DNA of 64,000 nt from Azolla caroliniana. Lineage: Eukaryota; Plantae; Polypodiophyta. Under the pieces are notes generated by a model. The model was not told where the DNA came from. It was given only the letters and a program-made list of their open reading frames with translations, and searched no databases. The stretch spans positions 10,602,001 through 10,666,000 of the forward strand of contig JBHGNT010000015.1 of NCBI GenBank assembly GCA_043228905.1, given 5' to 3'. This document shows, piece by piece, positions 3,018 through 52,071 of this stretch (positions are counted from its first letter, which is position 1; every line of letters starts with the position of its first letter). A program made the position numbers and the translations under genes.

Positions 3018-3656
3018 TGTGAAAGTGTTTTTAGAATTCAAGGTATTGAAGTCTACAAGAATATAAGGTATAGTGCGTTCACATCCGGAGGGCAAGATCA
3101 CGAGCTAAGGTCTTGAGGATAAGTCAAACAAAAAGCAAGTCACGTGGAGAAAAGTAAAAGAAGAAAAAAGCGGGCACCAAAATACAGTCTACAACGAACG
3201 CCCATAACTCTCTCTTTTGACACCCAAATATCACGTGTAAATATGGGTTAGAAAGCTTATGACGAGAGCTATCCGTAGCTTTTTAAAACTCTAAATTTGG
3301 AGCATGGACGAGGGAGATATGACGATTAGAAGATCGTTGTGTCATAGCTAAGAATAGGAGATGGAACAGCTCTAAAAAAAGCGTGGAAAAGAAAGCAAGC
3401 GAAACTTATCTACTAGAGGAGAACTTCATATAAAGCAAGAAGAGTGAGGTGGTGAGGGAGAGCCTTTTTCTTGTGGTGTTTTTCTTGCCTATTCATGTAG
3501 TGTGTTTTTCTAGTGATCAATTCATCTTTGTAGGCTTGAGTTTATGTATCTTCTTTCTCTTGTTTCTATGATCATCACTCCTTATTAATATATCTTTGTA
3601 GATTTGGGTTTCTATATCTTCCTTCTCTCTCTTTTCTATCATCATCTCTCTTTTCA
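3018..3656 (+). mobile_element. solo LTR (family of the 28230-32296 element) inserted at the gag-pol junction
   Basis: TGTGAAAG...CTTTTCA, 5-bp TSD CTGTC (3013-3017, 3657-3661); nearly identical to reverse complement of 31658-32296. Confidence 0.93.
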
Positions 3657-7304: not shown

Positions 7305-10300
7305 TGAAAAGAAATGCGCAGAATACCGTTCGGCCACAACCGAGTAGTAAATCACTTGTTTAAGAATCAAACATAGAAATGGGAAGTGGAGAGTACACAA
7401 GAAAATAACACAAGATGTTTACGTGGAAAACCCGAATAGGGAAAAACCACGGGAGTCCACAGACTCCGAACTATCACGATGAAGAGAAAGGGGTACAATC
7501 AGAGACTCAGAGGCAACGACCTCGAGCTCTGTTTCTTCGCCAATGGCGGTTACAACAGAGTATCGCTATGTATCTCTCTCTCTCTCTCTCTCTATACAAC
7601 AGTTACAACAATATGACAACAACACAATCGCACACACAAAGTGATTGCCCTAAGTCATATTTATAGTTATACGAACTTAGGGCTATTTACAAATATAGCC
7701 TCAATGGGCTTATTCAAGACATATTTACAAATCTGTCTTCTCTTCCGGTTCTCCCAAGACTCCTTCAGTTTTCGGATCTCTTCTGGTTCTCTTCGGGTCC
7801 TCTTTCTTTATTCATCACTGGATCCCATCCGAAGAGACCAATTTCCCAACAATCTCCCCCTTCACTCCGGTATGGGATGTCTTGTAAGTCCAATCCGTTT
7901 CCGACATGCGTCTAGCTTGTCGGTTGTCAGCCCCTTGGTTAGCATATCCGACCCGTTCTCCTCCGTGTGGATCTTCGTTAGTACGAACTCTCGATCTTCA
8001 ACTCGCTCCCGGATCCAATGGTATTTGCGTTGGATGTGCTTCGTTCTGGAATGGTATGTCGCGTTCTTTGCAAGGTGGATGGCACTTTGACGGTCGCAGT
8101 AGAGCCAATATTCCTCTTGTCGGATCCCTAGGTCTCCGATGAAGTCCTTCATCCATAATATTTCCTTGCCAGCTTCCACGGTTGCCATGTACTCCGCCTC
8201 CGTGGTTGACAATGCAACCGTCTTCTGCAACCTCGACTACCACGAAACGACTCCCCCTGCATAGGTCATGACATATCCGGAAGTTGACCGGCTAGTGTCC
8301 ACATCCGCCGACATATCCGAATCGGTAAATCCTTCCACGAGGGGTTTACCGGAGCCGAATCGGAGGCACATACTCGAAGTGCCCTTCAAGTACCAGAGTA
8401 TCCATTTTACCGCATTCCAGTGCTCTTTTCCGGGGTTGGTCATGAACCGACTCACCACTCCGATTGCGTATCCAATATCCGGTTGAGTACACACCATTTC
8501 GTACATCAAGCTCTCGACCGCATAGGCATATGGAATTTTCGTCATATCCGCCTTCTTTGCTTTTGTCTTCGGTCTTTGCTTACCGGATAATCTGCAGTTT
8601 GTCGGGAGTGTCGATCCGATCGGTTTTGCTTCTAACATGTTAAACCGTTGAAGCACCTTTGTCACATACTTTTCCTGTGACAACCACAATTGCTTCTTCG
8701 ACCGGTCCCGAATGATGTGCATCCCCAGTATCTGTCTTGCCGGACCCAAGTCTTTCATTGAGAAGGTCCAGTTAAGGGCCTTCTTCAACATCCATATCTT
8801 GACTTGGTCTTGTCTGACAATCAACATGTCGTCCACGTACAGAAGCAATATCAGGAAATCTCCTTCATCAAATTTCTTCACAAACACGCAGTGATCAGCC
8901 TACGTCTTGTGGTACCCTTGATCAGTCATGAAGGAGTCAAACTTCCGGTACCATTGTCAGGGAGCTTGCTTCAGTCCGTATAAGCTCTTCTTCAGCCAGC
9001 ACACCAGGTGCTCCTTCCCTTTCTTCTCAAATCCTTCTGGTTGATGCATGTAGATCTCTTCTTCGAGGTCTCCTTGTAGGAATTCCGTCTTGACATCCAG
9101 TTGCTCTACCTCGAGGTCCATGCTTGCCGCTATGCCCAAGACCGTCCGGATGGATGTCATCTTTACTACCGGGGCAAAGATCTCATCGAAGTCCACTCCT
9201 TCCTTTTGGTGGAAGCCCTTCACCACGATTCGGGCCTTATACCTTGGTGGATTTCCGGTGTCTCCCAGTTTCAGCTTGTACACCCACTTGTTCCGGAGTG
9301 CCCTCTTTCCTTTCAGCAACTCCACTAATTCATATGTGTGGGTCTCATGTAAGGAATCCATCTCATCTTGCATGGCACTCAACCACTTACGATTGTGGGT
9401 GTCTCCCCTTGCTTCTTCAAAGCTTTTCGGCTCCCTCTCATCGGTTAGCAACACATGCTCTGCATTTGGAAATCTTCGAGGGGCTCTTCTCTCCCAGAGA
9501 GGATATCTCCGTCCTTGGTTTTTGACTACCGGTTCCTCTTTTTGTTCCAAATCCGAATCTGATTCGGGATCTTGTCCTTTCAGGTGTCTTCTTCTTCGGT
9601 CGGTTCGGTTTCCTGTCCGTATCGGGCCGGTTCGTCGAGTGTCATCCGGTTATTGGCTAACATCCGGTTTTCAATCGGGTATATCCTTTTGTCCTCAGGC
9701 CGGTTCTCAATGGATGATCTGGAGTTCATTACCTTCTTCTCTGACTCCCAGTCGGCAATGGTCATGTCTTCCATGAAGAATATGTCCAGACTCCGGAACA
9801 CCTTTCTGTCGATCAGATCCCACACCCGGTAACCAAACTTATCATCGCCGTATCCAAGGAATATGGATGGCCGGGACTTCGGATCCAACTTTGCTCTCTT
9901 GTCCTTCGCCACATGCACGTATGTGAGACACCCGAACACCTTCAGATGCCAGTAAGACACATCCTTACCGGTTCATACTTTCTGCGGTGAGTCTCTGCCC
10001 AAGGGTACTAAGGGTGATCTGTTTATCACATAGGTCGTCATTGTCATCACCTCAACCCAAAACGTCTTGGGTAACTTGGCATGTGCGAGCATGGTCCGAA
10101 CTCTCTCCATTATGGTCCGGTTCATCCTTTCGGCCAACCCGTTTAGTTCCGGCGTCTTCAGCACAGTGAATTCGAGTTGGATTCCCTTCGACCGGCAGTA
10201 CTCCTCGAACTGCCCTCGGTATTCTCCTCCGTTATTTGCTTGAACCGCTTTTAGCTTCCGGTTGGTTTCTCTTTCCATTCTCGCATGGAGCTCCTTGAAG

Positions 10301-12250
10301 ATGGATAACACTTGATCCTTTGTCGTCAACGGTGAGACCCACAGCTTCCAGATGTGGTCATCTATAAACGTCACGAAGTACTGCGATCTAGCATGTGACT
10401 TCGTGTCTACTTGACACACATCGGTATGCACCAGCTCCAGTGGTGCATTCCGTCTCATCGGTGGTCTTGACCGGAAGGAGGTTCGGTTTTGCTTGCCATC
10501 CAGGCAGTCGATGCACTTCTCAAGTTGCACGTCCTTCACTAGAATGAGGTTGTCTTCGGCAAGCCTCTTCATCCCCTTCTCACTCATGTGACAGAGTCTT
10601 TTGTGCCATAGCTCACCGACAGTGTTAGATGCTACGTTCACTTCATCCCGGCATATCCGGGCATGCATTAAGTACAGTGTGTTGACCTTCCGGGCTCGAG
10701 CCATTATTCCAGATGCTACCTGTGTAGTCTTCATCATCTAGCTGATCGGCTGATATCGAACCTCCGGAACGTGTTGGACATCCTTCAACAACAACTTGCA
10801 TCCGATTGATGTCGTCAGCAGCACATCTCCTATGTCGATAATTCGGCATGTCCCTTCATTCCCCATCCGGACATAGTTGTGCTCACCGGCTGTGTAGGAT
10901 GAGAAGCATTTCCGGTCCGGGGTAAGGTGGAACGACGCTTCGGAATCGACAGCCCACGTTGTTTTGTTGACAACAAGGTTCAACTCACTCTCCTCATTAA
11001 TGAGCATTAGTTCTTCTTCACTTGACGCGATCACCGTCGTTCCCTTCCGATCCGGGTCTTGCCGATCCGAACCGTTTCGGTCTGGTGACTTCTTCGAATC
11101 GGTACTGTCGGTTCCCTTGTCTTTCCGGAAATGTCGACAGTTCTTCTTGAAGTGCCCCGGCTTGCCACAATAGAAGCAAGTGGGCCTCCCCCTTAACAAC
11201 TAACGTCTCCCAGCTATCCGGGAGGGAACCGAGCAGGAGTAGAGCCAAGTACCTCATCGGCGAGAGGTACTTCCAACGAGGTTGCTTGGTGTATCAGCCC
11301 CTGGAAGGCATTCATGTGCTCCGCCATACTGGAGTCGTCTTGGTAGTGGAGCCTCACTAGCTTCCGAAATACCGAAACCCAATTAACGACTTTCTTGTTC
11401 TGGAACATGATGTCGATCTTCTCCCAGAGTTCATGAGCCTTGCACTCTTCATTGAAGTTGTTGTACAGGCTCATGTCGATGAAGCACCGGATGTATGTCG
11501 TCATCTTCATGTGCATCACCTCCCACACCGTGGCGTCGATCTTATCCAGTCTCTTGTCCCCGAACTGAACCGGCAACCAAAGATCTTTAACCACCAGCAT
11601 GTCCCTCATCTTCGACTTCCACACTAAGTAGTTGGAGCCGGTGAGCTTGAACATGCCGCCGTAAGATTCTTCCATTTTTTGTGTTGTTCACTCTGATACC
11701 ATATTGAAAAGAAATGCGCGGAATATCGTTCGGCCACAACCAAGTAGTAAATCACTTGTTTAAGAATCAAACACAGAAATGGGAAGTGGAGAGTACACAA
11801 AAAAATAACACAGGATGTTTACGTGGAAAATCGTAATAGGGAAAAACCACGAGAGCCCACAAACTCCGAACTATCACAATGAAGAGAAAGGGGTACAATC
11901 GAAGACTCAGAGGCAACGAACTCGAGCTCTGTTTCTTTGCACAATGGCGGTTACAACAGAGTATCGCTCTGTATCTCTCTCTCTCCCTCTCTCTCTATAC
12001 AACAGTTACAACAATATGACAACAACACAATCGCACACACAAAGTGATTGCCCTAAGTCATATTTATAGTTATATGAACTTAGGGCTATTTACAAATATA
12101 GCCTCAGTGGGCTTATTCAAGACATATTTCAAATCTGTCTTCTCTTCCGGTTCTCACCGGGTCTCCTCCAGTTTCCGGATCTCTTCCGGTTCTCACCAGT
12201 TCCTCTTTATTCATCACCAGATCCCATCTGGAGAGACCGATTTCCCAACA
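7305..12250 (-). mobile_element. Ty1/copia (Tnt1/Tork-like) element with paired LTRs, decayed
   Basis: LTRs 7305-7851 and 11705-12250; PBS TGGTATCAGAG (Met-i) 11701-11691; PPT GAAGGGGGAGAT ~7852-7863; 4-bp TSD ATAC. Confidence 0.95.
7862..11675 (-). pseudogene. copia gag-pol (gag, CCHC, PR, IN, RT, RNase H) with stops and frameshifts
   Basis: CFYCGKPGHFKKNC, WAVDSEAS, LWHKRLCH, NGLAERMNRT, YVDD, RTKHIQ; gag is internally deleted near 11195. Confidence 0.93.
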
Positions 12251-12254
12251 ATAC

Positions 12255-15200: not shown

Positions 15201-18200
15201 TGTCGTGTTGTTACGCGCGTGCGTGGAGAAAGGCGGGACCACGAGGGTCTTGGACTAGGGAGTGACGGAGCGTAGGAAGTCGTACTTCACCGTTTCTTGG
15301 GGCATCCTAGAAGCACACCGGAAGCAACCGAAGGGAGAGAGAAAAAGAGAGAGAGCGCGTGCTTGACACCGACGCACGCACACACCTACACACACACACA
15401 CACACACAGGCCGACCCGATTCACGCCCTTATGTACAGGAAACGCAGGAAAGGGGAAGCACCCAACACCAGTAGAGACGCGAATATACACAGACACACGC
15501 AAATGTATATATATATAAAAGAAAGAATACATTCCCGGCTTCGAGCCGGACCAAGGTAGGTTACAGTAGTCGTCGGCTGCCAAGCCGCCGGTCGGGGAGC
15601 TCACGGGCTTGTCGCGCCGAGCGGGTCTGCGCTGGAGACGAGCTGAAGCAAACCCTAAGCGAGCACGAAGGAGGGGGGGAGAAGAAGAAGAAGAAGATGA
15701 TGATGATGAATGTAACTAACCCTAAATCTAACGGTATACCCTCTAACGCAAAAATGGGCAACCCTTTCACAAAGGGCGCTCCGTTCCTTTTATAGAACAA
15801 GGAGAGGGATGTGTTACAATCTGGGATAAATCCCGACTTACATGGGATCGTCTGTCCCGACTTGACTACTCTTCAGCGCCATAAAGGCGCCCTCGTTATT
15901 CACACTAAATGTACAAGGGTGAGCACACATGCTGCACCTTGCTGATGTAGCCAATGTTTCCCGGTTTCCGCCTCCGGCCGAAATTCTTCACGACATCCGC
16001 CCCCACCAAACTGCACGTCCACCGGTACGTGCCAAATCCGGTGAAGGGTGAGAGATTTCGGCCGGTGAGAAACCGGTCTTCCGTAATCCGCATCCCGGCT
16101 CGCTGTCGGTTTGCTCCGTCGGCTTCGGTTCTTCCTTCGCGCTTACCTCCCCGTAGGTTCATTCGATCCGTCGATGGGTCCTCTACCGCGATCTCCGTAA
16201 TACACGTACTTCCGCTGGCCCTTGTTCGGCCGTATGAACACCCCGCTCCCCGCCGTATGCCCGATGTCCTCCGCTTGAGGAACGCCCGTAGTGGCCGCTC
16301 GGCCTCCGTTGACCTTCATGTTGTCTCGCGTTGCCTTCGTCCTCTCGCCGCCACCTTCCTTCTCCATGGTCTTACATCGCCGCGTCAGCTCGAACCGCCA
16401 TGGTCTCCAGAACGGTGTGGAGGATCCCTTTTTGGCCTTCTATGCGCTACCTCCGAACCGCGCAACCCATCTCCGCGCTCGCCTTTCTGCTCCGGCACCT
16501 CCGTGTGCCACATACCCTCATCCGTTGTTTAGCACTGCCTGTGCCGTACTCCGGTTCATTGCACGCCTTGTCGGCCCCTTTCCCGGCCAGATCGTGCATC
16601 ACCGCTCACCCACATACTGGTGTCCTCCGCATCCGAGGAACACCCCGTAGTAGCCCGCTTGGCCCTTCCCGTCTTCGTGCTACTGCAACAGGTTCTGAGC
16701 CTTCCGCTTGCCGTCGTCCCCTCGCCCCCACCAAGTTGTCACCCCGGCTTGCCATGTCAGTCTTCGCTACTTCGACGGAGCTACCGAGATCTACGAAGCG
16801 AGTGTGGAGGATCCTCCTCCGGCCTCTCTTGCCATCCCGTGACTCCGACCCTATGCAGTCTACTAGGCACTTGTCACCTCATTCCCGACACCTCCCTTGT
16901 GCCGTCTTCCGCTTCCTTCATTCGGCACCGCCCATGCCGAACACTGTCCCTTAGTCACGCTTTGATACGGCCCGCGATGGCCACTTGCGAGACTCTTATT
17001 CCGTCCCAGGTGTGCCTTTCCGGCCCGACACACCTCCTCGTGTTTGCCCCTACCGGCTCCTTCCGAAACCGTAACCGGCCAGTGAGGGTTTCGCACTTCG
17101 TCCGCCCGTCTTACCGGCTCCCTATCCGCTACCTCGTGTCGTTGGGTCCCGTTCCCTGCCGCCACCGTCCTTCTCCCTAGGTCTCACGTTGCCACGTTGG
17201 CCGAACTGCTGGGGTGTCCAGATTAGTTTGAGGGTCCCATAGGACCGGTCTTCATTTCGTCGCTTGCCGAGATCCGGGTGTCTTTTGTTTGAGTCCCTCC
17301 CGGACTCTCCTCGTGTCTTCCGCGTAGTCAGGTCCCGTTTCCCGCTGCCACCAACCTTCTCTCTCGGTCTCATGTTGCCATGTTGGCCGAACTGCAGGAG
17401 TCTCGGGTTAGGTGTGGGGACCCCGTAGGACCGGACTTCCTTATGCCCACTGACCTTGCCGGAAGGTCCGATTTGGTTCGTCGCCGCCTCGCCGACCTGA
17501 TACCTCCTTGCCGTTTGTCGCCTCTTGTCGTCCGATCACGTTCTCCTGCCGCCACCAATCTCCCCTATAGGACTCACGTCGGCACTCGGGCTGACTGCCG
17601 GATCGGTGTGAGTGTCTTCGTGGGACCTCCCCTTCTGGCTTTGGTTGCCCACCTTGCCGCCGCCACCGTCCCTTACTCTAGGTCTCACGCCTCCTCTTGT
17701 CGTTGGCTGCCGGAGTCTCTAGAATCGGTTCGTGTAAGGTCACAGCTGCTCCGCTCTGCCTTCGCCATTCTCTTCTGTTGGTCCCGTTCACCTGCCGCCA
17801 CCGTCCTTTCCTATAGGACTCACGCCGGCTCTCGGGCCGACCGCCGGATCGATGTGAGGATCTCCGTAGACCGCCCATCCGTAGCCTTTTGCCTTCGTCC
17901 CCTCGCCGCCACCGTTCGTCACTTTAGGCCGACCTCCGGCTCTCGGGCCGACCGCCGGTTTCTGTAGAACTGGTGTGAAGGATCCTCCGCGGGCTTGCCG
18001 TATCTCTGACCCTTATCCCGGGTCTTCCTTCTTTCGTAAGTCGAGAGGGTGGCTCGCTCCACACCCTCTCCCGTGGTACCGACGTACCGTGTTCCCGGCC
18101 TCTTCGTAGGCCTGCTCTCTTCCTCCCTCCCGGAATGGTCATCCGGGAGTCCGCTCCACCCGGTTCTCGTCCGGGTCTTCGTTCGTCCTTCTCCGGATTG

Positions 18201-20283
18201 TCGGGTCCCGTTCTCCTATCGCCACCAACCTTCCAATTCCCGACCTTCGCCCGGTCGGTCTTTCTCCCCATGTAAAAGAGGGTGGCTCGTCCCGCACCCT
18301 CTTCCATATCGGCACTTTCATGCTGAATCTGGCCGCGATTGAACTATCCACGACCGGACTCTGCTCCATCCGAATCGGAATGCCGATCTTCCCGTGCCGC
18401 CTCCATCCTTGGCCTCCTCGCAAGCCGTTTCCCATCCCTCTTCGTTGGCATCGTGCCAGGACTCCTCGTCGGCGCCTTCCTTCTCTCCAGTCTCATGTCG
18501 GCACACGAGCATGACCGCCGGAGTCTCTGGAATCCGCGTGGAGGGCTCTTCTCCGCTCTCGACCCTTTCCTCGGTCGGCAATTCTCCGCAAGTCGAGAGG
18601 GCGTTTTGTTGCGCACCCTCTCCCGTGGTACCGTCGTACCGATCTTCCGCCGTCGCGTGGGGCAAGTCCGTCTTCTCAGTCTCGGCTTGCGGCCTCGATC
18701 TTTCCTCTTCCTCGAGCATCGCCTCGAGAGCTGCGTACGCCTCCGCAATCCGGGCCTCAACGCCAACCCTTGCCAACTCCCTTTTCCGTTCGGCCTCTTC
18801 CCGCTGTGATGGCACGCCGTCACACGCCTTCCTCTTAGCCTTCTCGGCTCGCTCATCGTCTAGCCGTTGGCACACCCTTCCGACCTTCAACCAGTGCTCC
18901 GTAAGCCCATTCGCTCCGTCATCGTCTTCGAGCTCCATCCCGATGGCCTCCCGTTCCGCTCGGTCGATCGACCTGACGAACAATAGGACCTTGTTCGTCC
19001 CCACCAAACCTTGTTCCCGCTCCGGGAGCCGAGCAAGCCGTCGCTCGAACTCTCGGAACGCATTGGTCACGCCCCGGTGGGTCTTTGCCGATGCTACCCA
19101 CTGGTCGAAGTCGTGTCGTCCCCGGCTCTTCCGCCGTCCTCCGTATGCCTTCAGGAGCACCTCTTCGAAGGCCTCCCACGAACTACGAGCCTCACGGAGC
19201 TCCTTTACTTCCGCATGTATCCGGACAGCTACGACCCGACAGAAGAATTACAGCCTCAATGCTTCGTCCACGTCTCGCTCCTCCATTTCCGCGTTGTAGG
19301 CTTCCAAGTAAGATGGGACTTTGTCCCCGTTAAAACGGCTGACTCTTTCGACCACTCGCTCAACCGCTTGTTGCGCTGCTTCTCGCCTCATCACCACTCG
19401 TGCCGACTCCAACACCACTTCGACCACCATCACCGCGAGGTCGTCGTCTTCTGACTCCATCCTCCCTTGCCGCCCTTCACGTCGGGTTCACCAAATATGT
19501 CGCGTTGTTACGCGCGTGTGTGGAGAAAGGCGGGACCACGAGGGTCTTGGACTAGGGAGTGACGGAGCGTAGGAAGTCGTACCTCATCGTTTCCTGGGGC
19601 ATCCCAGAAGCACACAGGAAGCAACCGAAGGGAGAGAGAGAAAGAGAGGGAGCGCGCGCTTGACACCGATGCACGCACACACCTACACACACACAGGCCG
19701 ACCCGACTCACGCCCTTATGTACAGGAAACGCAGGAAAGGGGAAGCACCCCACACCAGTAGAGACGCGAATATACACAGACACACGCAAATGTATATATA
19801 TATAAAAGAAAGAATACATTCCCGGCTTCGAGCCGGACCAAGGTAGGTTACAGTAGTCGTCGGCTGCCAAGCCGCCGGTCGGGGAGCTCACGGGCTTGTC
19901 GCGTCGAGCGGGTCTTGCGCAGGAGACGAGCTGAAGCAAACCCTAAGCGAGCACGAAGGAGGGGGGGAGAAGAAGAAGAAGAAGATGATGATGAAGAATG
20001 TAACTAACCCTAAATCTAACGGTATACCCTCTAACGCAAAAATAGGCAACCCTTTCACAAAGGGCGCTCTGTTCCTTTTATAGAACAAAGAGAGGGATGC
20101 GTTACAATGTGGGATAAATCCCGACTTACATGGGATCGTCTGTCCCGACTTGACTACTCTTCGGCGCCATAAAGGCGCCCTCGTTATTCACACTAAATGT
20201 ACAAGGGTGAGCACACATGCTGCACCTTGCTGATGTAGCCAATGTTTCCCGGTTTCCGCCTCCGGACGAAATTCTTCACGACA
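15201..20283 (-). mobile_element. non-autonomous gypsy-type LTR element with gag-like ORF only and tRNA-Trp PBS
   Basis: LTRs 15201-15995 and 19498-20283; PBS TGGTGAACCCGACGTGA (19493-19477); PPT-like GGTGGGGGCGGA; 4-bp TSD CCGT; no RT/IN motifs inside. Confidence 0.9.
18318..19460 (-). pseudogene. gag-like ORF (one internal stop) with acidic/charged tail
   Basis: RFNGDKVPSYLEAY...SWEAFEEVLLKAY resembles a retrotransposon capsid; starts just after the PBS. Confidence 0.6.
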
Positions 20284-23017: not shown

Positions 23018-26000
23018 TGTTGAGCAGCAAGCTCAACTAAAGCCGGATCGGCTGAATAAGCCTGAGCCGACAAGCGAGACGGATCGGTAAGCTGTGAGCA
23101 ACCGAGCCAGCAAGCAATAGAGCCGGTGAGCTGGGGAGCCGGTTAGCCGGATCCAATCAGTAACCGGAAGCCTAGTATTAGCGTAGACTACTAGGCAATT
23201 ATAGTCTCATAGTAAGTGTCAGATGCTCGTGTGAGCATTGAAGTACGCGGTACTTCTGTCAGTCCCACGAGGACTTGTATAAATAATGCTACTGAGCATA
23301 GTTGTATGTACAGAGTGTTTTTATTGTTTTTGAATATAGCCTTGAAGTTCTGCTCTCTCTGTCTCTCCCGTGTACTCTGTGTATTCCCTACCTTCTCTGT
23401 TTTCTAATGCTTCCGCAAGTAATCGTTTACATGGTATCAGAGCGCGAGGGTTGAGAACCTCTGCAGCCGACAAACGCTTGAAAGCAAACCCTAACAGGTT
23501 GTAAAACAGCAGACAAAGAAGTGATGGATAGAGGGATGGCTAGCTCGCTCCCTATGGAGAAACTCGACAGATCCAACTATGCATCTTGGTCGTATAAGAT
23601 GCACCAGTACCTGCTTGGGCATTGCTACTGGAGTTTCGTCGAAGGAGCCAACGAAACAGCACTTGATGCGGCACATAAGGACTTCCCAGTGTGGGAACAA
23701 TCGGTAGGCAGAGTGATGTATTGCTTCGCGTCCAGTGTCGGAGACCAGCTGCCGAGCCACATCCGAGACGCCAAGACGTCGAAGGAGGCTTGGGGGAACC
23801 TAAAGAAGGTTTTCGCCGCGAGCACTACAGCCCCAAAGCTGCAGCTCCGATAGGAGTTGAGCAATGTCCGACAGAAGGACTTGTCGGTGGCGGATTACAT
23901 GGCCCGGATCAAAGAGATCTATGACTCGCTTGCCTTTATCAACGTTACCGTAGAGGAAGACGAGATGGTACAGGTCTATCTTGGGGGCCTGGCACCTAAG
24001 TTCAGAGCGTTCCGAACGGCGGTGTGTACAAGGGAGAATACGCCGTCATTTTTCAACTTACAGTCGATGCTCCTTGTAGAGGAGAACCACGCTGGTGCGT
24101 CAACTAGCGCACCCACTGACAGCCGGATGTTGTACACGGAGGCGGATCGGTCCCGTGGGCTTGGTGGGTCGGCACGCAATGGAGGTGGCCGGCAAGAGCA
24201 GGAACGAAGGCACAGAGAACATGCCGACAACGGTTCCGGGACTCCCACAGGCAGGGGGAGTCATGGTGACACCGGAAGACGCCAAGAGAAGTCAACAACG
24301 GAATGCTGGTACTGTGGCAAAAAGGGCCACAGAGAAAGCGAGTGTTGGAGAAAACGAGCCAATTCGGACAAATCCGGATCCGGCAAGGCCGGCAAGGATG
24401 GCCGGCAAAGCTCGCACTACGCGAAGGGATCGGGAGGATCCAAGAACGGCAATGGGCCAGCTTGGTGATGAAGCACGAGGCGAACTCGATGAAGAAGACC
24501 ACTTCCAAATCGGAGGAAGTGTGGTATGTTGATTCCGGTGCGTCGAACCACATGACGAACCACAGAGAGTGGTTCTCCTTTTTGGAGAAACCGGATCAAC
24601 CAGGAGTAGTCGAAACCGGAGACAACACTCCTCACCCAATTGTGCACGTTGGAGAAGTCCCCTTGAGCCGCGTCGGACAGAAGGGGAAGCTGATGAACGT
24701 ATTACACGTTCCGACAATCACGAAGAACCTGGTGTCGGTCGGACAGATCGTCGACCAAGGGATGCAAGTGCGGTTTACGCACCTCGGGTGCTTCATCGAG
24801 GAAGAGTGCCATATTATTGCGCAAGGGCGCAGAGATGGGAGGATGTTTATCCTCGACACCAATGACGTCAGCACCGCTTTGTTTGCAAAAGGACAGAAGG
24901 TCGAATCGGACATTGACCTGTGGCACAAGCGGATAGGCCACGTCAATTACCGGAGGCTTCAAGACCTGCAAACGAAACAAGTTGTTTTCGGTTTGCCGAA
25001 GTTTAGCGGCCGGAAGGCCCAAGTATGTGAAGCCTGCCAACTCGGGAAGCAACATCGGCTTCCATTCCCCACCGAACATAACCGGAGTCGTAACAAGCTC
25101 GACCTTATCCATTCGGATGTGTGGGGACCAACACAGAATGTTAGTCTTGGCGGGAGTCGATATTTCATCTCCTTCATCGACGACTACACGCCGCACACAT
25201 GGATCTACCTCATTGAACGGAAGAGTGAAGTCTTCGAGTGTTCCCAGAGTCTCCAAAGCATGGTGGAACGGGAATCGGAGAGGAGGATGAAATGCCTGCG
25301 GTCGGAGGGCGGAAAAGAGTACTTTTCCGGCCAATTCAACAGTTATCTGCAGCAAAAGGGAACTCGGTGAGAGTTCAGCTACAGATACACACCGCAACAG
25401 AATGGTGTTGCCGAAAGGAAGAACCGGTCGCTTATTGATGCGGCAAGGGCAATGCTTGAGGAGAAGAGCATGCCCAAATTCTACTAGGCGGAGGCAGTCA
25501 GAACAACTATCTACATCCAGAACCGGATCGCTGACAAGGTGTCAGCTCACGAGCTGTATTTCGGGCGCAAGCCGAATTTGAGACACCTTAAGATCTTCGG
25601 TAGCATTGCATATGTGCATGTACCGGAAGAGAAGTGGAGGAAGCTGGATGCAAATTTGGAAAAATGCATCCTAATCGGCTATGCTCAAGAGCTTAAGGGT
25701 TATAAGTGTTATAACCCCCGGACAAAGTAGGTTCGAGTTAGTTGAGATGTCGAGTTCGATGAATCGGCATCGTGGTACTCCTTACCGGCTCCGACTTTTG
25801 AATCTGACCCGATGCCGGTGGATGAGGCTAGTGAGCCTGAACCGGCCCAGGTAGAGGATGATGAAGCATGGACTCAGGATGAGAGTCCGGAATCGTTCTG
25901 GTTGAGCGGGCCAAACGAGAGACTGAGTCAATCTGACCAATCCGATGAGGAACCGGCGAGTAGTGGACACTCTGTCGTGCACTCCCCGCGCAAGGAACTG

Positions 26001-27030
26001 AGGCGACGGTTCACGCGCAAAGAGAAGGGGAAGAAGATGCCAGAATTCGAAACCGGCAATGATGAGTCGGATAAGTGTGCATCCGACTCCGGGAAGGAGA
26101 AAGGCAGATCTTCGGCAACGAAGACCGAGCCGGCCAAGAAGGGCCTCAAACCGGGTAACAGTGAGTTATGTCGGACCACCCGCCAGAAGGATCCCGTCAA
26201 GCGGTACGGGTACAATGATTACATGGTGCATCACTATGCGTACATGACTAAGGTGGCGGAAGTGCGTGAGCCGGAGAGCTACGCAGAAGCGGCCAAGGAC
26301 ACCAATTGGCATGCCACTATGGAGGAAGAAATGCGGGCACTTGATGTCAACAAGACATGGGACCTGCTTGACCCTCCTCGTCACTGTAAACCGATCGGAT
26401 GCAAGTGGATATACAAGGTAAAGCACAACGCCGACAGTTCCGTTAACCAGTATAAAGCCCGGTTAGTGGCGAAGGGATACGCACAGACCCACGGAATCGA
26501 CTACGACGAGACCTTCGCTCCGGTAGCGAAGATGACGACGGTTCATGTGGTGCTGGCGGTTGCTGCAGCAAGGGGGTGGCATCTTCACTAGATGGATGTG
26601 AAGAATGTGTTTCTTCAAGGTGATCTTGAAGAAGAAGTCTTTATGACTCAGCTCCCCGGCTTTCAATCGAAGATGAACAAGTCGGCGGTATGCCAGCTGA
26701 AGAAGTCGTTGTACAGCCTGAAGCAAGCCCCTCGAGCTTGGAATGCGAAGATCACGCACCGGTTGTGTAAGATGGGGTTTGTGGCCAACAAATCGGACTC
26801 TTCGTTATTCATCTGGCAAGGCTCAGTCGGCCCAGTATGTATACTGTTGTATGTTGATGATCTAGTCATCACCGGACCGGGTGTTCCAGAAATCAACCGC
26901 GTCAAGTTCCTATTGTCAGACACATTTGAGATGAAGGACCTGGGGGACCTTCATTATTTTCTTGGGATCGAGGTGATCCGAACCCCCGACAGCATATTAC
27001 TCTCACAACGACATTACGTCTTGAATATGA

Positions 27031-27781
27031 TGTTAGGAAACAGGTCCCTCCGGATGGGAAGTGAGAAGAACAGTGTTGATGAGCAAACTCGGCCGAGGCC
27101 GAGGCCGAAACCGGATGTGGAGTACCCAGCAACGGAAGACCCGGTGAGAACCGGATGTGGAGTACCCGACAACGGAAGACCCGGTGAGAACCGGATGTGG
27201 AGTACCCCGGCAACAGAAGACCTGGTGAGAACCGGATGTGGAGGACCCGGCAACGGAAAGCCCGATGAGAACCGGATGACGAGTACTCGGCAAGAGCCGG
27301 ATGGTGAAGGCCCGGTGAGAAGTGCTCACCGGATGAAGGGACATATTCGTAAATATGTTTTCTGAGAGTCCATCGGGGCTATATTTGTAAATAGCCGAAA
27401 AGTCATATTAGTATAAATATGACTTAGGGCAAACTCAGTATAGTGTTGTTGTTGTCAATCTTGTTGGCGCAAGATTAGAGCGCGTAACTGTGTACAGGAT
27501 GAGAGAGAGAGAGAGAGAGAGGAAGAGATCATTGCCTTTATTGTAACCGCTGCCTGTGGCAAAGATAGCAAGCTCGAGGTCATTGCCTCGGTGCTTTACT
27601 ATTGTACATTGTGATATAGGGATAGTTTGCAGTCTGTGGGATGTCGTGTTTGGGTTTTCCACGTTAACATCCTTTGTTCTCTTCTCTTCACTGTGTCGTG
27701 CGTGCATTACCCGTTTTCTATGTTTGATCCTAGACTCGGGTGTGGCCAAGTGTTGTGCTTAGGGAGCGTGTATTCCTGTCA
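27031..27781 (+). mobile_element. solo LTR (copia-type) with ~39-bp tandem U3 repeats
   Basis: TGTTAGG...CCTGTCA, TSD TATGA; homologous to 51460-52071; R/U5 motifs shared with the 7305 LTR. Confidence 0.92.
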
Positions 27782-28229
27782 TATGATGTACAAGTTCGGC
27801 ATGACAGAATGCCGACCTGTCTCCACACCCTTGGACCGGAACCAGAAGCTCCATCCCAACTCTGGACTGGCCTTCAACGAGAAACGGTTCTGACAAATTG
27901 TCGGAAGCCTTATTTACTTGACATCAGCTATTCGGTCGGGATGATAAGTCAGTTCATGCAAAAGCCGACCGTGGAGCACCTTCAGTGCGCGCAGCGGATA
28001 CTGCGATATGTAAGCGGCACGAAGGACCGGGGACTGTTATACCGGCGAGGTATAACCAAAGAGCTTGTCGGTTACATGGATTCCGACTGGGCCAGCAATG
28101 CATCAGATTGCCGATCAACCTCTAGATACATGTTTTCCCTAGGTAGTGCGGCTGTTGCGTGGAGCAGCAAAAAGCAGCCAACAGTTGCTCTGTTGAGCAC
28201 TAAGACTGAGTATCGGGGCATTACCATTG

Positions 28230-29530
28230 TGTGAAACTGTTTTTAGAATTCAAGCCATTGGACACTAAAAGAATATAAGGTATGGAGGATTCACATTTGG
28301 AGGACAAGGACATGAACTAACATCTCGTGGATAAGTCCAAATAAAAGCAATAAAGATGGAGAAAAGTTAAAAAGAGAAAAAGCAGACCACCAAACCGCAG
28401 TCAGAAACAAATGCTCATAACTCTCTCGTTTGACACCCAAATATCACGTGTAAATATGGGTTAGAAAGCTTATGACGAGAGCTATCCGTAGCTTTTTAAA
28501 ACTCTAAATTTGGAGCATGGATGAGCGAGATATGATTATTAGAAGATCGTTGTATCATAGCTAAGAATAGGAGATGGAAAAGCTGTAAAAAAAGCGTGGA
28601 AAAGAAAGCAAGCGAAACTTATCTACTAAAGGAGAACTTCATATAAAGCAAGAAGAGTGAGGTGGTGAGGGGAGCTTTTTTCTTGTGGGGTTTTTCTTGC
28701 CTATTCATGTAGTGCGTTTTTGCTAGTGATCAATTCATCCTTGTAGGCTTGAGTTTATGTATCTTCTTTCTCTTGTTTCTATGATCATCACTCCTTATTA
28801 ATATATCTTTGTAGATTTGGGTTTCTATATCTTCCTTCTCTCTCTTTTCTATCATCATCTCTCTTTTCATTTTTGGCGCTCCAGGAAAATGAAAAGAGAG
28901 ATGATTGATAGAAAAGAGAGAGAAGGAAGATATAGAAACCCAAATCTACAAAGATATATTAATAAGGAGTGATGATCATAGAAACAAGAGAAAGAAGATA
29001 CATAAACTCAAGCCTACAAGGATGAATTGATCACTAGCAAAAACGCACTACATGAATAGGCAAGAAAAACCCCACAAGAAAAAAGCTCCCCTCACCACCT
29101 CACTCTTCTTGCTTTATATGAAGTTCTCCTTTAGTAGATAAGTTTCGCTTGCTTTCTTTTCCACGCTTTTTTTACAGCTTTTCCATCTCCTATTCTTAGC
29201 TATGATACAACGATCTTCTAATCATCATATCTCGCTCATCCATGCTCCAAATTTAGAGTTTTAAAAAGCTACGGATAGCTCTCGTCATAAGCTTTCTAAC
29301 CCATATTTACACGTGATATTTGGGTGTCAAACGAGAGAGTTATGAGCATTTGTTTCTAACTGCGTTTTGGTGGTCTGCTTTTTCTCTTTTTAACTTTTCT
29401 CCATCTTTATTGCTTTTATTTGAACTTATCCACGAGATGTTAGTTCATGTCCTTGTCCTCCAAATGTGAATCCTCCATACCTTATATTCTTTTAGTGTCT
29501 AATGGCTTGAATTCTAAAAACAGTTTCACA
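28230..29530. repeat. ~640-bp-arm inverted repeat (LTR palindrome) with 20-bp spacer
   Basis: 28890-29530 is the near-perfect reverse complement of 28230-28869. Confidence 0.95.
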
Positions 29531-29791
29531 TTTAGCCCTCCCCCTTGCTTCTTGGTGAACCATTTATGGTGAACCCTAAGCTACTAATAAAACTAAAGGT
29601 TCTCCTTCGCCTTATTCATGGCTATAGACAAAGAAGGAGATAATAAATAAATAAATAAAAACAAATGATGTGAGTAAAACCCCCGCTAGTCGGTAGGAAA
29701 AACCTCACACTTCTAAACACACACACATACACATTGACAATTGCCATCACCATCTTTCTCCTTGTCAACACAAAGAAAGAGGTTACAACAA

Positions 29792-31561
29792 TTAGTATAT
29801 CTTCATCAACTTTCCAAACAGAAGTAGGTCTATGTGATACATAACTCTTGATAGAAGTAAGCATGTTAACATATGAATAAATCTTTCGAGCGAGCGAACC
29901 TTTTGTACAAATACCTTCAAAGCTTCGAGACTTGTCAGAATTGTCATATTTTGAATTATGTCAATCTTTGCTTCATCAACATGACTTTCTTCTTGGCACA
30001 CCACATTCTCCACATTACCTTGTTTTTTATGTATGACCATTTCATCTAGAATCTCATCTCGAAAAGGAAGCAAAAATAAATCTCGTTTGGTTGAATCATT
30101 CAAGGATTGGAAGTTGACGTCTTTCTCCTTTGGAACAACCACAATAAGTGAGACAAACTTCAAATTCTCCATATGATAAATGAAACTCTCTTGTAACAAT
30201 GCTTTATGATCTTTCTTTTGCACAACCTTAGATTCTTGAAGAGTTTGGGCAATTGGTACCTTCAATTTGATAAGGTCTTTGAAGCAACCTTCTCCTTTTA
30301 TATGTGAATAGACATTTATGAGTAATTTTGGAAACTCAAAAAGAAAAGAACTAAACCTTAGATGCTCTTCTCCTTGGACATCGTTTGAAATCATCTTCTT
30401 TTTCCCCTTTAGGGTGATAATACTTTTCTCTTCAATGACTTCTTCCTCCTCCTTAGACACCATGTGGAATGATTTGTTTTCCCTATCCCACGAATATTCA
30501 TCAATTGTTATGCTTTCCTCTTCTTGCTTGCCAATGTCGATAGATGATTCCTTCTCCTTTATACATTTGATTAGTTGTGGTGGATCCTTTGGTGGTGATA
30601 AGTTAATGATACTCCAATCATGCATTACAAGTAAATCTCTTGGCTCTTGGTCAAATTGTTGTTGAAGAGTTGATGCCCACATAACTTTGTTGCTACTCAA
30701 TGCAAATCCAAAACATAAATCATGCACGAACACCTTCATACACTGCAACTTGGCACTTACCAATGCTTCCTTACACGCATTGATCTCCAAAAGCCAATCT
30801 CCAACTATCACTTCTAGGTTACCTTCTTCATCTTGCAACTTCGTTGTGGGTACTTCACCATCAACAACTTCTTTTGTCATATCTTCCATTTCTTCTTGCA
30901 CATATTCATCATCAACCACCATATCACTTGTTGTATCAATAATGTCCTCAACATGATGTGCATTGGCATCACCATCCATAACATCGCTTCTCATAACTAT
31001 CTCCTTAGATTCGTCTTTCACATCATCATTTTTTATATCATGGTTGTCCTCATGAACTAGATGGGGGGACTCCACATTCATCACCTCTTCTTCATTGTCT
31101 CTGGAATCACCTTCATAGACATCATTATAACTCCAAAAATTAGAATAATGATATGAGGGAACCTGTTGAATCGGACATTGCAAGTAGGCTGGTTGTTGGC
31201 TCATGACCGATCCACAATTATTATAGCTTGGATTTATGGTATATGACGCCGATACTCCATATGCTTCACCGAATAACAACTTCTTCAATTGTTGATCATA
31301 ACTTTGACATACTCGAAGCAAATCATGGAAAGACCTTGGGTACTTCATATGCACTTCATATTGAAAATATGGATCTAGCCCTGCTTTGAATCTTTCCATC
31401 TTGAAGTATACATCTTCAACGCCTCCAACAAGTCCAATCCAAGTGGACCATATATCCAAAAACGTCTTCTCATACTCGAGGTAGCACATTGGTGAAACCA
31501 TACGCAATTGGAAAAGTTCTCTTCGTAGATCTATCGCATCGCGAACTCCATATCGTGCCAT
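29792..31561 (-). CDS. 589-aa gag-like protein fused to an internally deleted RT remnant
   Basis: Open ORF: 'ERFKAGLDPYFQYEVHMKYPRSFHDL' (gag-like), acidic linker, 'VSLIVVVPKEK..LNDSTKRDLFLLPFRDEILD' and 'VDEAKIDII' (RT pieces); no YxDD. Confidence 0.7.
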   Translation of the reverse strand: MARYGVRDAIDLRRELFQLRMVSPMCYLEYEKTFLDIWSTWIGLVGGVEDVYFKMERFKAGLDPYFQYEVHMKYPRSFHDLLRVCQSYDQQLKKLLFGEAYGVSASYTINPSYNNCGSVMSQQPAYLQCPIQQVPSYHYSNFWSYNDVYEGDSRDNEEEVMNVESPHLVHEDNHDIKNDDVKDESKEIVMRSDVMDGDANAHHVEDIIDTTSDMVVDDEYVQEEMEDMTKEVVDGEVPTTKLQDEEGNLEVIVGDWLLEINACKEALVSAKLQCMKVFVHDLCFGFALSSNKVMWASTLQQQFDQEPRDLLVMHDWSIINLSPPKDPPQLIKCIKEKESSIDIGKQEEESITIDEYSWDRENKSFHMVSKEEEEVIEEKSIITLKGKKKMISNDVQGEEHLRFSSFLFEFPKLLINVYSHIKGEGCFKDLIKLKVPIAQTLQESKVVQKKDHKALLQESFIYHMENLKFVSLIVVVPKEKDVNFQSLNDSTKRDLFLLPFRDEILDEMVIHKKQGNVENVVCQEESHVDEAKIDIIQNMTILTSLEALKVFVQKVRSLERFIHMLTCLLLSRVMYHIDLLLFGKLMKIY

Positions 31562-33640
31562 TAGTTTGATGATGAATCGGTAGATCCAACCATCAATTAG
31601 TGGACAACCGTTCCTCCCGTTATACAGAAAGGATCGACCCTCCCTGGAGCGCCAAAATGAAAAGAGAGATGATGATAGAAAAGAGAGAGAAGGAAGATAT
31701 AGAAACCCAAATCTACAAAGATATATTAATAAGGAGTGATGATCATAGAAACAAGAGAAAGAAGATACATAAACTCAAGCCTACAAGGATGAATTGATCA
31801 CTAGAAAAACACACTACATGAATAGGCAAGAAAAACACCACAAGAAAAAAACTCCTCTTCACCACCTCACTCTTCTTGCTTTATATGAAGTTCTCCTCTA
31901 GTAGATAAGTTTCGCTTGCTTTCTTTTCCACGCTTTTTTTAGAGCTTTTCCATCTCCTATTCTTAGCTATGACACAACGATCTTCTAATCGTCATATCTC
32001 CCTCATCCATGCTCCAAATTTAGAGTTTTAAAAAGCTACGGATAGCTCTCGTCATAAGCTTTCTAACCCATATTTACAAATTATATTTGGCTTCCAAACG
32101 AATGAGTTATGAGCGTTCGTTGTAGACTGTATTTTGGTGCCCGCTTTTTTCTTCTTTTACTTTTCTCCACGTGACTTGCTTTTTGTTTGACTTATCCTCA
32201 AGACCTTAGCTCGTGATCTTGCCCTCCGGATGTGAACGCACCATACCTTATATTCTTGTAGACTTCAATACCTTGAATTCTAAAAACACTTTCACACATT
32301 GCCACCTGTTAAGCCATTTGGCTTCGGCGACTACTACAAGACTTACGGATCGAGGTACCGACCCCGATTCTAGTCTACTACGACAACATAAGTAGCATAC
32401 AACTCGCCAAGAACCCTATGTTCCATGCTCGCACAAAGCACATAGAAGTGCATTATCACTTTGTGCGTGAGCGAGTCCTGAGCGGTGAAGTTGAACTACG
32501 GTATGTTCACACGGATCGGCAAGTTGTCGACATCTTCACCAAGCCGCTTGGATCAGACAAGTTGCAGCACTTTACCGATATGTTTGGTGTTCAGCATCTC
32601 GACGTGCCACACTTGAGGGGGAGAACGGGCAGAGACACCAGAATGGGCAAAGGCAAAGAGACTGCTGATTGCGCCGGTGAGGGAAGAATAGAAGGCGGCA
32701 GAGTCAATAAGGACAGAGCCGACCGAAGGAAGAAGGCCAAGACCCGGACATGGTCCGATGTGGTGAAGGGCTTGGAACTAGAAGATGAATCGGGAGCAAC
32801 CGATTCGGACAAGAGCTGGAACGAATCAGAGACAGTCGATTCGGTTCAAAAGACAAATTCAGAAGAACCAAATCAATTCAAGGCCAAGCAGACACGGATG
32901 CAGCGGAAGTCGATGCCATCGCGGAGAAACCGACGGATCGATAAGCGTCGGAGTCATAGCAGCGAAGGAGTTGAGAGGGGCCTATTGAGCAGACATACCG
33001 ACCGAGAAGGTCGAGGCGCGCAGAACAAGAGGGGTTGCGGCAAACAAAACCAAACCGGACGAGGAGTGCGAGCAAGGCAAAGCGACGCCAGGAGAGGTTG
33101 GTTGGAAGAACCGGTTGCCACAGAGACTAACACTAAGATCCAACCTCAAGTTGAGCTTGAGGGGGAGTGTTGAGCGGCAAGCTCAACTAGAGCCGGATCG
33201 GTTGAATAAGCCTGAGCCGGCAAGCGAGACGGATCGGTAAGCTGTGAGCAACCGAGCCGGCAAGCAACAGAGCCGGTGAGCTGGGGAGCCGATTAGCCGG
33301 ATCCAATCAGTAACCGGAAGCCTAGTATTATCGTAGACTACTAGGCAATTATAGTCTCGTAGTAAGTGTCAGATGCTCGTGTGAGCATTGAAGTACGCGG
33401 TACTTCTGTCAGTCCCACAAGGACTTGTATAAATAATGCTACTAAGCATAGTTGTATGTACAGAGTGTTTTTATTGTTTTTGAATATAGCCTTGAAGTTC
33501 TGCTCTCTCTGTCTCTCCCGTGTACTCTGTGTATTCCCTACCTTCTCTGTTTTCTAACGCTTCTGCAAGAAATCGTTTACATTGGTCCTTTTCTCCCTGG
33601 GGATAAATGTGTAGGCTTCGCATCCAAATATACAGAGCCT

Positions 33641-51459: not shown

Positions 51460-52071
51460 TGACAGGGATACACGCTCCCTAAGCACAACACTCGGCCACA
51501 ACCGAGTCTAGGATCAAACACAGAAAACGGGTAAGGTATGCACGACACAGTGAAGAGAAGAGTACACAGGATGTTAACGTGGAAAACCCAAACTAGGGAA
51601 AAACCACGGCAGCCCATAGACTGCAAACTATCACTATATCACAATGTACAATAGTAAAGCACCGAGGCAACGACCTCGAGCTTGCTATCTTCGCCACATG
51701 CGGCGGTTACAACAGAGGCAACGACCTCTTCCTCTCTCTCTCTCTCTCTCTGTACACAGTTACGCGCTCAAATCTTGCACCAACAAGAATGACAACAACT
51801 ACACACTAAGTTTGCCCTAAGTCATATTTATACTAATATGACTTTTCGACTATTTACAAATATAGCCCTGATGGACTCTTAGAAAACATATTTATGAATA
51901 TGTCCCTTCATCCGGTGAGCACTTCTCACCGGGCCTTCGCCATCCGGCTCTTGCCGGGTACTCGTCATCCAGTTCTCACCGGGTACTCCACATCTGGTTT
52001 CGGCCTCGGCTGAGTTTGCTCATCAACACTGTTCTTCTCACTTCCCATCCGGAGGGACCTGTTTCCTAACA
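51460..52071 (-). mobile_element. solo LTR, same family as 27031-27781
   Basis: TG...CA ends, TSD CATTG (51455-51459, 52072-52076). Confidence 0.92.

What the first reader, a model, noticed from the sequence alone, without database searches (positions are those of the whole stretch)
28225..32301. Three-LTR retro-insertion whose central palindrome looks like a fossil cDNA hairpin closed by the tRNA-primer copy
Seen: one TSD (CATTG) flanks LTR(+)-20 bp-LTR(-)-PPT-internal-PBS-LTR(-), so both integrated termini are U3 ends (TGTGAAA). The spacer reads CA|TTTT-TGGCGCTCCAGG-AAAA|TG: LTR-PBS spacer, 12 nt of PBS, then the complement of the spacer. The two inner LTRs are near-identical. The outer LTR has a clearly different U3 (it matches the solo LTR at 3018) and a 3-nt rather than 4-nt spacer. 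Known: plus-strand strong-stop DNA ends in a copy of the tRNA 3' end, and the minus strand starts with the spacer complement after RNase H removes the primer. Inference: the strong-stop 3' end was joined to the minus-strand 5' end, making a hairpin; a strong-stop from a co-packaged sister subfamily supplied the other LTR; displacement synthesis opened the hairpin and integrase inserted it. This would be a one-step route to an LTR hairpin locus able to make dsRNA/siRNA against the family.
Basis: partly seen in the sequence, partly recalled or inferred. Interest (0 to 1): 0.82.

Follow-up and report, generated by a model that had tools for sequence, protein, structure and literature searches.

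The report
Retrotransposon integrated with captured strong-stop DNA
A 4-kb plant jumping-gene copy sits under one insertion scar with the same end facing outward on both sides and a 1.3-kb mirror repeat closed by 12 bases of its tRNA-primer site; it is likely a one-off copying accident in which a normally discarded DNA intermediate was joined on before insertion, and it would form a long RNA hairpin if transcribed.

Summary
The anatomy is real. One 5-bp TSD flanks LTR1(+), a 20-bp joint, LTR2(-), PPT, a gag-pol remnant, PBS and LTR3(-), nested in an older Copia whose sequence runs on across the site. Both outer ends are U3 ends. The joint holds a 12-nt PBS copy and an untrimmed U5 end, so it formed in cDNA before integration; nested insertion and autointegration do not fit. 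LTR1 and LTR2 differ at 6 sites and share 8 changes against a relative; LTR3 differs at 62, mostly in the first 183 nt of U3. Best reading (0.65): one reverse-transcription product captured the first plus-strand strong-stop DNA, a Ty3-like dead-end species ending after 12 tRNA nucleotides, while a sister variant supplied LTR3. Main rival (0.2): tail-to-tail cDNA dimer with later collapse to a solo LTR. It is one copy; recurrence, long-read support and siRNA output are untested. The scan noted related same-end integrants before, here and in another genome. New variant of a known kind of accident.

The parts
28225..28229 (.). Left target-site duplication (CATTG)
   Evidence: host sequence continuous across the site
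28230..28869 (+). LTR1 (X-type U3), U3 end outward; inferred to be the captured first plus-strand strong-stop DNA
28870..28873 (+). 4-nt LTR-PBS spacer of LTR1
   Evidence: a 4-nt spacer is a normal family form
28874..28885 (+). First 12 nt of the PBS (inferred copy of the primer tRNA 3' end); loop of the palindrome
   Evidence: identical to 31643-31654 (-); weak 3-bp mini-hairpin, -1.1 kcal/mol, no better than shuffles
28886..28889 (-). Untrimmed 4-nt spacer at the U5 end of LTR2 (inferred 5' end of the minus strand after primer removal)
   Evidence: the family PBS continues with other letters here
28890..29530 (-). LTR2 (X-type U3), 3' LTR of the element; 6 differences from LTR1
29531..29553 (-). 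Polypurine tract and 5 nt before LTR2
   Evidence: same in L002
29792..31561 (-). 589-aa open frame, a degenerate gag-pol remnant of a non-autonomous sub-lineage
   Evidence: no Pfam hit of its own; relatives carry Retrotrans_gag
31637..31654 (-). Primer-binding site (tRNA-Asn-like; the tRNA label is recalled, not tested)
   Evidence: conserved in family contigs and L001
31655..31657 (-). 3-nt LTR-PBS spacer of LTR3
31658..32296 (-). LTR3 (Y-type U3), 5' LTR of the element, U3 end outward; 62 differences from LTR1 and from LTR2
32297..32301 (.). Right target-site duplication (CATTG)
3018..3656 (+). Solo LTR of the same family, Y-type U3, own TSD CTGTC (comparison copy)
23018..33581 (+). Host Copia element (LTRs 23018-23431 and 33168-33581, TSD TTGGT) whose RNase H region received the insertion

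Best explanation
The 4067-bp insert is a single integration by two U3 ends, and it is likely one aberrant reverse-transcription product of a non-autonomous Tat-like Ty3/gypsy element in which the first plus-strand strong-stop DNA (LTR, spacer, 12 nt of tRNA copy) was joined to the untrimmed U5 end of the full-length cDNA. Shown by sequence: one TSD, two outward U3 ends, a U5-to-U5 joint reading spacer / 12-nt PBS / spacer complement, inner LTRs that share 8 changes, an outer LTR of another variant. Inferred steps: (1) minus strand M1 was made from an X-type RNA and primed a first strong-stop that stopped after 12 nt of tRNA; RNase H removed the tRNA. (2) The second strand transfer was intermolecular: a strong-stop from a co-packaged Y-type RNA paired with M1 at the PBS and supplied LTR3 and its 3-nt spacer. 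(3) This plus strand ran through the internal part, PPT and LTR2, displacing the first strong-stop; at the end of M1 the RT jumped end-to-end onto the 3' end of that strand and copied it back, giving LTR1 (about 0.4 of the 0.65). (4) Integrase of the autonomous partner trimmed and inserted the two U3 ends; the remaining nick was sealed by host repair. The palindrome is predicted not to be inherited on re-transposition, since a normal transcript would run from LTR3 to the R region of LTR2. Transcripts that read through the joint would fold into a long hairpin; that is untested.
For: Single event: same 5-mer on both sides, flanks abut with no gap on a second Copia copy and in 4 X1 contigs. Order of ages fits: host LTRs differ at 14 of 415 columns, the arms at 6 of 640 (Fisher P=0.009). 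Joint made in cDNA: LTR2's U5 end keeps its 4-nt spacer, whereas the solo LTR's CA abuts its TSD; the family PBS continues with other letters at positions 13-16 in LTR3, in L001 and in contigs of 4 runs, where summed depth does not fall at position 12. Inner LTRs from one source: against L002's LTR they share 8 changes at LTR positions 297-492, with 2 private to LTR1 and 4 to LTR2; the 8 are clustered (span 195 nt, P=0.0015 for uniform placement), as expected for a segment inherited from one parent rather than for scattered later mutation. X-type U3 is the natural neighbour of this PPT region in L002 (97% over 831 nt). LTR3 is a family variant, not a decayed copy: 42 differences from L002 are shared with the solo LTR, 41 of them in positions 8-183. 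Ty3 model: the first plus strand ends after 12 nt of tRNA, is displaced, and such dead-end strands accumulate in particles (PMC5371799 section 2.2). Retroviral and LTR-retrotransposon RTs do end-to-end clamping with at least 2 bp of overlap made by non-templated addition (PMC8363836 passages); the captured strand ends in GG and the copied strand resumes with CC, which fits but is not diagnostic. Recombination among co-packaged family members is documented for plant elements (PMC6894440, PMC12786077 passages), and the internal frame looks mosaic.
Against: One copy only; the sequence is the same under jump, ligation and snap-back, so the route is not shown. No microhomology lies at the joint, so the jump needs two non-templated bases; 5 of the first 17 possible PBS end points also end in GG (my count), so the GG/CC fit is weak. 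The 12-nt stop is described for yeast elements and their tRNA, and may match by coincidence. Reviews describe the second transfer as occurring within one molecule and giving identical LTRs (PMC6894440 passages), so step 2 is itself unusual. Whether the internal domain belongs with the X or the Y LTR could not be fixed: window-like internals occur with both spacer lengths. Several of the 8 shared letters are rare or unseen in contigs of 4 runs, which arm-to-arm conversion could also explain.
Confidence: 0.65

Rival explanations
1. Two finished linear cDNAs were joined U5-to-U5 by host end-joining, one still carrying 12 nt of primer-site copy; integrase inserted the dimer by its two U3 ends; the left element later collapsed to a solo LTR (LTR1), and either the right element had unlike LTRs from the start or the palindrome arms were homogenised afterwards.
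For: PBS remnants at U5 ends are common in HIV-1 2-LTR circle junctions: 8 of 63 wild-type insertions in PMC9198661 (passages); also PMC5618025 (passages). Solo-LTR formation happens in this family (3018-3656). Four of the 6 arm differences lie in the outer 173 nt, as centre-out conversion would leave them.
Against: It predicts LTR2 = LTR3, but they differ at 62 sites while LTR1 and LTR2 differ at 6. Rescue needs full-length conversion through a stretch only about 75% alike, or a third rare step. No shared change lies in the innermost 148 nt. X-type U3 already sits next to this PPT region in L002.
Confidence: 0.2
2. Integrase made the central joint: one element's trimmed U5 end attacked the PBS of its own or another cDNA or chromosomal copy in the opposite orientation (autointegration or nested antisense insertion), and later rearrangement left the present layout.
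For: Nested antisense insertions that could give LTR hairpins are seen for EVD (PMC11624286 passages). An earlier scan note reads a palindromic Gypsy fossil as autointegration-like (e1-10279157; not checked).
Against: An integrase joint puts CA directly on target DNA; here CA is followed by the spacer, and the family PBS does not have these letters at 13-16. There is no second TSD, and recombination between inverted LTRs cannot turn the outer end into a U3 end.
Confidence: 0.05
3. The joint formed in cDNA as in the best explanation, but all three LTRs were identical at insertion and LTR3 with its spacer was later replaced by gene conversion from a Y-type 5' LTR elsewhere; co-packaging of two variants is not needed.
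For: The family is abundant, with both U3 types present in all 4 runs laid, so donors abound. In the Ty3 recycling model the element's own later strong-stop does the transfer, which would give three identical LTRs.
Against: The tract would have to run from LTR position 8, 7 nt from the TSD, through to the spacer, with no homology beyond the LTR start.
Confidence: 0.07
4. Assembly or fold-back read artefact.
For: Near-perfect 1.3-kb palindromes in repeat-rich regions are a known trouble for assembly (general knowledge). No whole genome was held, and reads of this individual were not available.
Against: The arms differ at 6 sites, 3 of them C-to-T or G-to-A changes on one arm; a fold-back would give identical arms and would not return to the host at an exact TSD, nor place a biologically exact primer-site copy in the loop. 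Arm divergence is lower than that of the host LTRs.
Confidence: 0.03

Closest known systems
Template-switching complex LTR insertions (Sabot and Schulman 2007, PMC1950507; whole text read)
   Same: Three LTRs under a single 5-bp TSD, attributed to abnormal strand transfer between co-packaged RNAs and inserted by normal integrase action.
   Different: Theirs have two internal domains, a shared middle LTR and near-identical outer LTRs. Here there is one internal domain, one LTR is inverted, both ends are U3, the inner pair is near-identical and the outer LTRs differ at 62 sites.
Dead-end first plus-strand strong-stop DNA of Ty3/Ty1, PPT-recycling model (PMC5371799, section 2.2 and passages; the original Lauermann and Boeke papers were not held)
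   Same: LTR1 plus spacer plus exactly 12 nt of primer-site copy is the described shape of that species.
   Different: In yeast it is described as displaced and not inherited; here it appears fixed in a chromosome, in a plant Tat-like element with another tRNA.
PBS/tRNA remnants at HIV-1 2-LTR circle junctions (PMC9198661, PMC5618025; passages)
   Same: An unprocessed U5 end followed by primer-site sequence at an end-to-end joint.
   Different: Those joints are U5-to-U3 in unintegrated circles; this one is U5-to-U5, makes a palindrome, and was integrated.
LTR or TE hairpin silencing loci: EVD nested antisense insertion and Mu killer (PMC11624286; passages)
   Same: Inverted element sequence that could be transcribed into hairpin RNA and start silencing in trans.
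   Different: Those arise from nested or tandem insertion or rearrangement; the EVD LTRs are 1.9-2.6 kb apart, and close inverted LTR pairs were sought there and not found. Here two LTRs are 20 bp apart from one insertion; expression is untested.
Tat clade (non-chromovirus|OTA|Tat; Neumann et al. 2019, PMC6317226; passages)
   Same: The autonomous partner L002 shares the LTR and has RT, RH, a second RNase H-like domain and INT in the order described for Ogre/Retand; 5-bp TSD.
   Different: The window copy is a non-autonomous remnant; no tree was built, so the subclade is open.

Membership tests
Template-switching complex (Sabot and Schulman) | Single TSD around the whole structure | tested here: met
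Template-switching complex (Sabot and Schulman) | Two internal domains around a shared middle LTR | tested here: not met
   one internal domain; LTR1 inverted against LTR2 and LTR3
Template-switching complex (Sabot and Schulman) | Outer LTRs near-identical | tested here: not met
   LTR1 and LTR3 differ at 62 sites
Nested antisense insertion / autointegration product | Trimmed CA end joined directly to target DNA | tested here: not met
   CA is followed by the 4-nt spacer; family PBS reads otherwise at 13-16
Nested antisense insertion / autointegration product | Separate TSD for the inner element (nested insertion) | tested here: not met
   only one TSD, around all three LTRs
Ty3-type first plus-strand strong-stop DNA | U3-R-U5, spacer, then 12 nt of tRNA copy | tested here: met
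   28230-28885 against PMC5371799 section 2.2
Ty3-type first plus-strand strong-stop DNA | The 12 nt are copied from the tRNA, not from the genomic PBS | not testable with these tools
   no host tRNA gene in the window, no genome held; PBS and tRNA copy are expected to be alike over these 12 nt
Tat clade (OTA) Ty3/gypsy, parent family | Extra archaeal-type RNase H domain in pol | tested here: met
   L002: RVT_1 232-390, RT_RNaseH 453-583, RVT_3 632-753, integrase 829-997; reading RVT_3 as aRH is my inference
Tat clade (OTA) Ty3/gypsy, parent family | Placement in an RT-RH-INT tree | not tested
   no reference set at hand
siRNA-producing hairpin locus (Mu killer-like) | Long inverted repeat able to fold | tested here: met
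   28660-29100 folds as one hairpin, -385.7 kcal/mol; trivial for a palindrome
siRNA-producing hairpin locus (Mu killer-like) | Read-through transcript, siRNAs and silencing in trans | not testable with these tools
   needs small-RNA and methylation data from a carrier

The most novel reading that the evidence does not exclude
Capture of the dead-end strong-stop DNA is a recurring exit of LTR reverse transcription in plants: it builds, in one integration, a near-perfect LTR hairpin with two inward-facing promoters, and such loci are founder sources of siRNA that silence their own family. The fossil would also be direct in vivo evidence that plant Tat elements make Ty3-like strong-stops that end after 12 tRNA nucleotides.
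Probability: 0.15. Interest if true: 0.8.

Novelty: new variant of a known kind. Interest (0 to 1): 0.5.

Why it matters
The intermediates of plant LTR reverse transcription are mostly inferred from yeast and retroviruses. This insertion likely preserves one: where the first plus strand stops, where the primer is cut off, and that two variants were copied in one particle. It also shows that this integrase accepts two U3 ends. How a plant first starts silencing a new LTR element is open; close inverted LTR pairs were sought for EVD and not found (PMC11624286). A one-step route to such a pair gives a precise junction to search for in any genome. As it stands it is one copy with no shown function.

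Tried and rejected
Whole-genome search for more such junctions: not possible, no genome held. Metagenome scan with a U5 motif gave 3 loci; 1 of 3 has a normal LTR-PBS junction, none a hairpin joint; too few to speak to recurrence. Viral collection: nothing, by protein or by junction pattern. Sequencing runs: 22 listed, no RNA holder listed; this says nothing on expression. Contigs of 4 runs laid on 28060-28920 had no cover at 28901-28920 and no listed piece bridged the left TSD or the joint (24 of 424 loose ends and 32 of 7564 pieces were shown); contigs drop rare forms, so this is no evidence either way. Linkage of the internal domain to spacer length: contigs break at the spacer, both lengths occur (X1 depth 51.6 and 38.3; X2 527 and 455); inconclusive. 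No loose end at PBS position 12-13 among the 24 of 49 shown. Mini-hairpin in the PBS copy as a snap-back primer: -1.1 kcal/mol, 42 of 200 shuffles fold as well; kept only as a minor route. Pfam found nothing in the internal frame. No tRNA gene in the window, so the primer was not identified. Post-insertion fold-back of a normal element was rejected because it cannot supply the 12-nt PBS copy and a U3 end flush with the TSD. Relation to the PPT-less dual-PBS lineage noted by other agents in this genome: rejected, this element has a normal PPT. Paper searches for this layout: searches listed 4, 7 and 12 papers, none describing it by title or abstract start; searches listed 0. The library lacks most subscription papers, and four primary papers I wanted (two yeast strong-stop papers, the alt-EJ paper, a Ty1 cDNA-end paper) were not held. 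No supplements were read.


Full report
Observation. CATTG stands at 28225-28229 and 32297-32301. Between lie LTR1 (28230-28869, +), TTTT, the first 12 nt of the PBS, AAAA, LTR2 (28890-29530, -), a PPT, an internal domain, the PBS, a 3-nt spacer and LTR3 (31658-32296, -). Both outer ends are U3 ends. The 12-mer occurs only at the joint and at the true PBS; 0.13 matches are expected by chance and 0 of 100 shuffles give 2.

One integration. The insert lies in the RNase H region of a Copia element with LTRs at 23018-23431 and 33168-33581 and its own TSD. The left flank ends and the right flank begins at the same position of a second Copia copy in the window, with no gap. Four contigs of run X1 leave the stretch at 28229 and go on as 32302 does. 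The host LTRs differ at 14 of 415 columns and the palindrome arms at 6 of 640 (P=0.009), so the insert is the younger, as nesting demands. These points, and the 6 arm differences, make an assembly artefact unlikely, though no spanning read was available.

The family. The internal domain holds a 589-aa frame without a Pfam hit. It has 8 relatives among 4536 candidates and aligns to the gag and pol of L001 and the pol of L002. L002 carries RT, RH, a second RNase H-like domain and integrase, the order given for Ogre/Retand-type Tat elements (PMC6317226, passages); no tree was built. Other agents' notes call the organism a fern; I did not test that. The LTR is abundant in the 4 runs laid, with both U3 types present.

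The three LTRs. LTR1 and LTR2 differ at 6 sites; each differs from LTR3 at 62; LTR3 differs from the solo LTR at 19. With L002's LTR as reference, LTR1 and LTR2 share 8 changes, all at positions 297-492 (span P=0.0015), and have 2 and 4 private ones. LTR3 and the solo LTR share 42 differences from L002, 41 of them in positions 8-183. So X and Y are two U3 variants of one family, the inner pair comes from one source, and LTR3 is a normal Y variant. In L002 an X-type LTR follows the same PPT region as LTR2. The 3-nt and 4-nt spacers are both common and both occur with window-like internals, so they do not mark the variants cleanly. Some of the 8 shared letters are rare or unseen in the contigs; that fits a rare parent or arm-to-arm conversion.

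The joint was made before integration. An integrated U5 end has CA directly against host DNA, as in the solo LTR. LTR2 keeps four more bases equal to the spacer. For an integrase-made joint the PBS would have to continue with those four bases; it does not in LTR3, in L001 or in the run contigs. Read on the + strand, the insert is a plus-strand strong-stop DNA followed by a complete minus strand. In the Ty3 model the first plus strand stops after 12 nt of tRNA, is displaced, and accumulates as a dead end (PMC5371799, section 2.2). That is the shape of 28230-28885, though the match in length could be chance, as the tRNA differs.

How the join was made. Three routes give the same sequence. (a) RT jump: a Y-type strong-stop pairs with the X-type minus strand at the PBS, extends to the end of the template, and clamps onto the 3' end of the displaced X strong-stop. 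Retroviral and LTR RTs need at least 2 bp for clamping, supplied by non-templated addition (PMC8363836, passages); the acceptor ends in GG and the copy resumes with CC (a preference of some RTs for adding C is recalled, not checked). Only a paired nick is left for host repair. [quoted passage not shown] (c) Snap-back of the strong-stop on itself, as known for HIV minus-strand strong-stop DNA (PMC6088434, passages); the mini-hairpin here is weak and the strand would then need to reach the PPT. I give 0.4, 0.2 and 0.05. In (a) and (b) a foreign outer LTR is natural, because the element's own strong-stop was not used for the transfer.

Rivals. A tail-to-tail dimer with later collapse draws on known parts: PBS remnants at U5 ends were 8 of 63 wild-type insertions at HIV-1 circle junctions (PMC9198661, passages; also PMC5618025). 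It predicts LTR2 = LTR3, which fails unless the arms were fully converted (0.2). Later conversion of LTR3 alone (0.07), integrase-made joints (0.05) and artefact (0.03) are less likely.

Function. Both inner LTRs have their TATA-like box at position 413 and face the joint; 28660-29100 folds as one hairpin. Nothing here shows transcription or small RNAs. In Arabidopsis, close inverted EVD LTR pairs were sought as the first source of LTR siRNAs and not found (PMC11624286, passages), which is why the layout is worth a genome-wide count.

Comparison and novelty. The nearest described class is the three-LTR, single-TSD template-switching complex (PMC1950507, whole text), which has two internal domains and matching outer LTRs; this insert fails those tests. 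I found no description of this layout in seven searches of a library that lacks most subscription journals. The scan's notes hold other integrants with two like ends: a Copia with two tail ends in this genome (e1-10619871) and a palindromic Gypsy fossil elsewhere (e1-10279157); I did not check them. They suggest such accidents recur as one-offs. Verdict: real, mechanistically informative, single copy, no shown function; new variant of a known kind; interest 0.5.

Noticed in passing
window 40776-63786: Cluster of spliceosomal snRNA genes: 5 U2, 4 U1 and 1 U4 Rfam matches; U1 and U2 lie in a 3301-bp tandem unit whose copies are over 99% alike from 56537 to the window end.
   Followed up: no
window about 30170-30370 (-): The internal frame is near-identical to P0001 except for about 65 aa that carry a 31-32-aa segment absent from P0001/P0002 and present in P0006/P0007; it looks like a recombination patch between sister non-autonomous lineages.
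   Followed up: partly
window 3018-3656 against 28230-28869: The family's two LTR variants differ almost only in U3 positions 8-183 (41 of 42 shared differences), a swapped enhancer-like module; the solo LTR looks Y-type there and X-like at 195-219.
   Followed up: partly
window 27261-27781 and 51460-51983: A second insertion in the host Copia's RT region, 90% like an inverted copy at 51460-51983, ends in CA at 27781 and is preceded by about 40-bp tandem repeats.
   Followed up: no
window 7301-12252 and 15201-20283: Two more LTR elements on the minus strand with LTR pairs 92% and 96% alike.
   Followed up: no
L001 1-2797: Another non-autonomous member of the same LTR family with an intact-looking gag (Retrotrans_gag, zf-CCHC) and a pol remnant, same PBS, 3-nt spacer.
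   Followed up: partly
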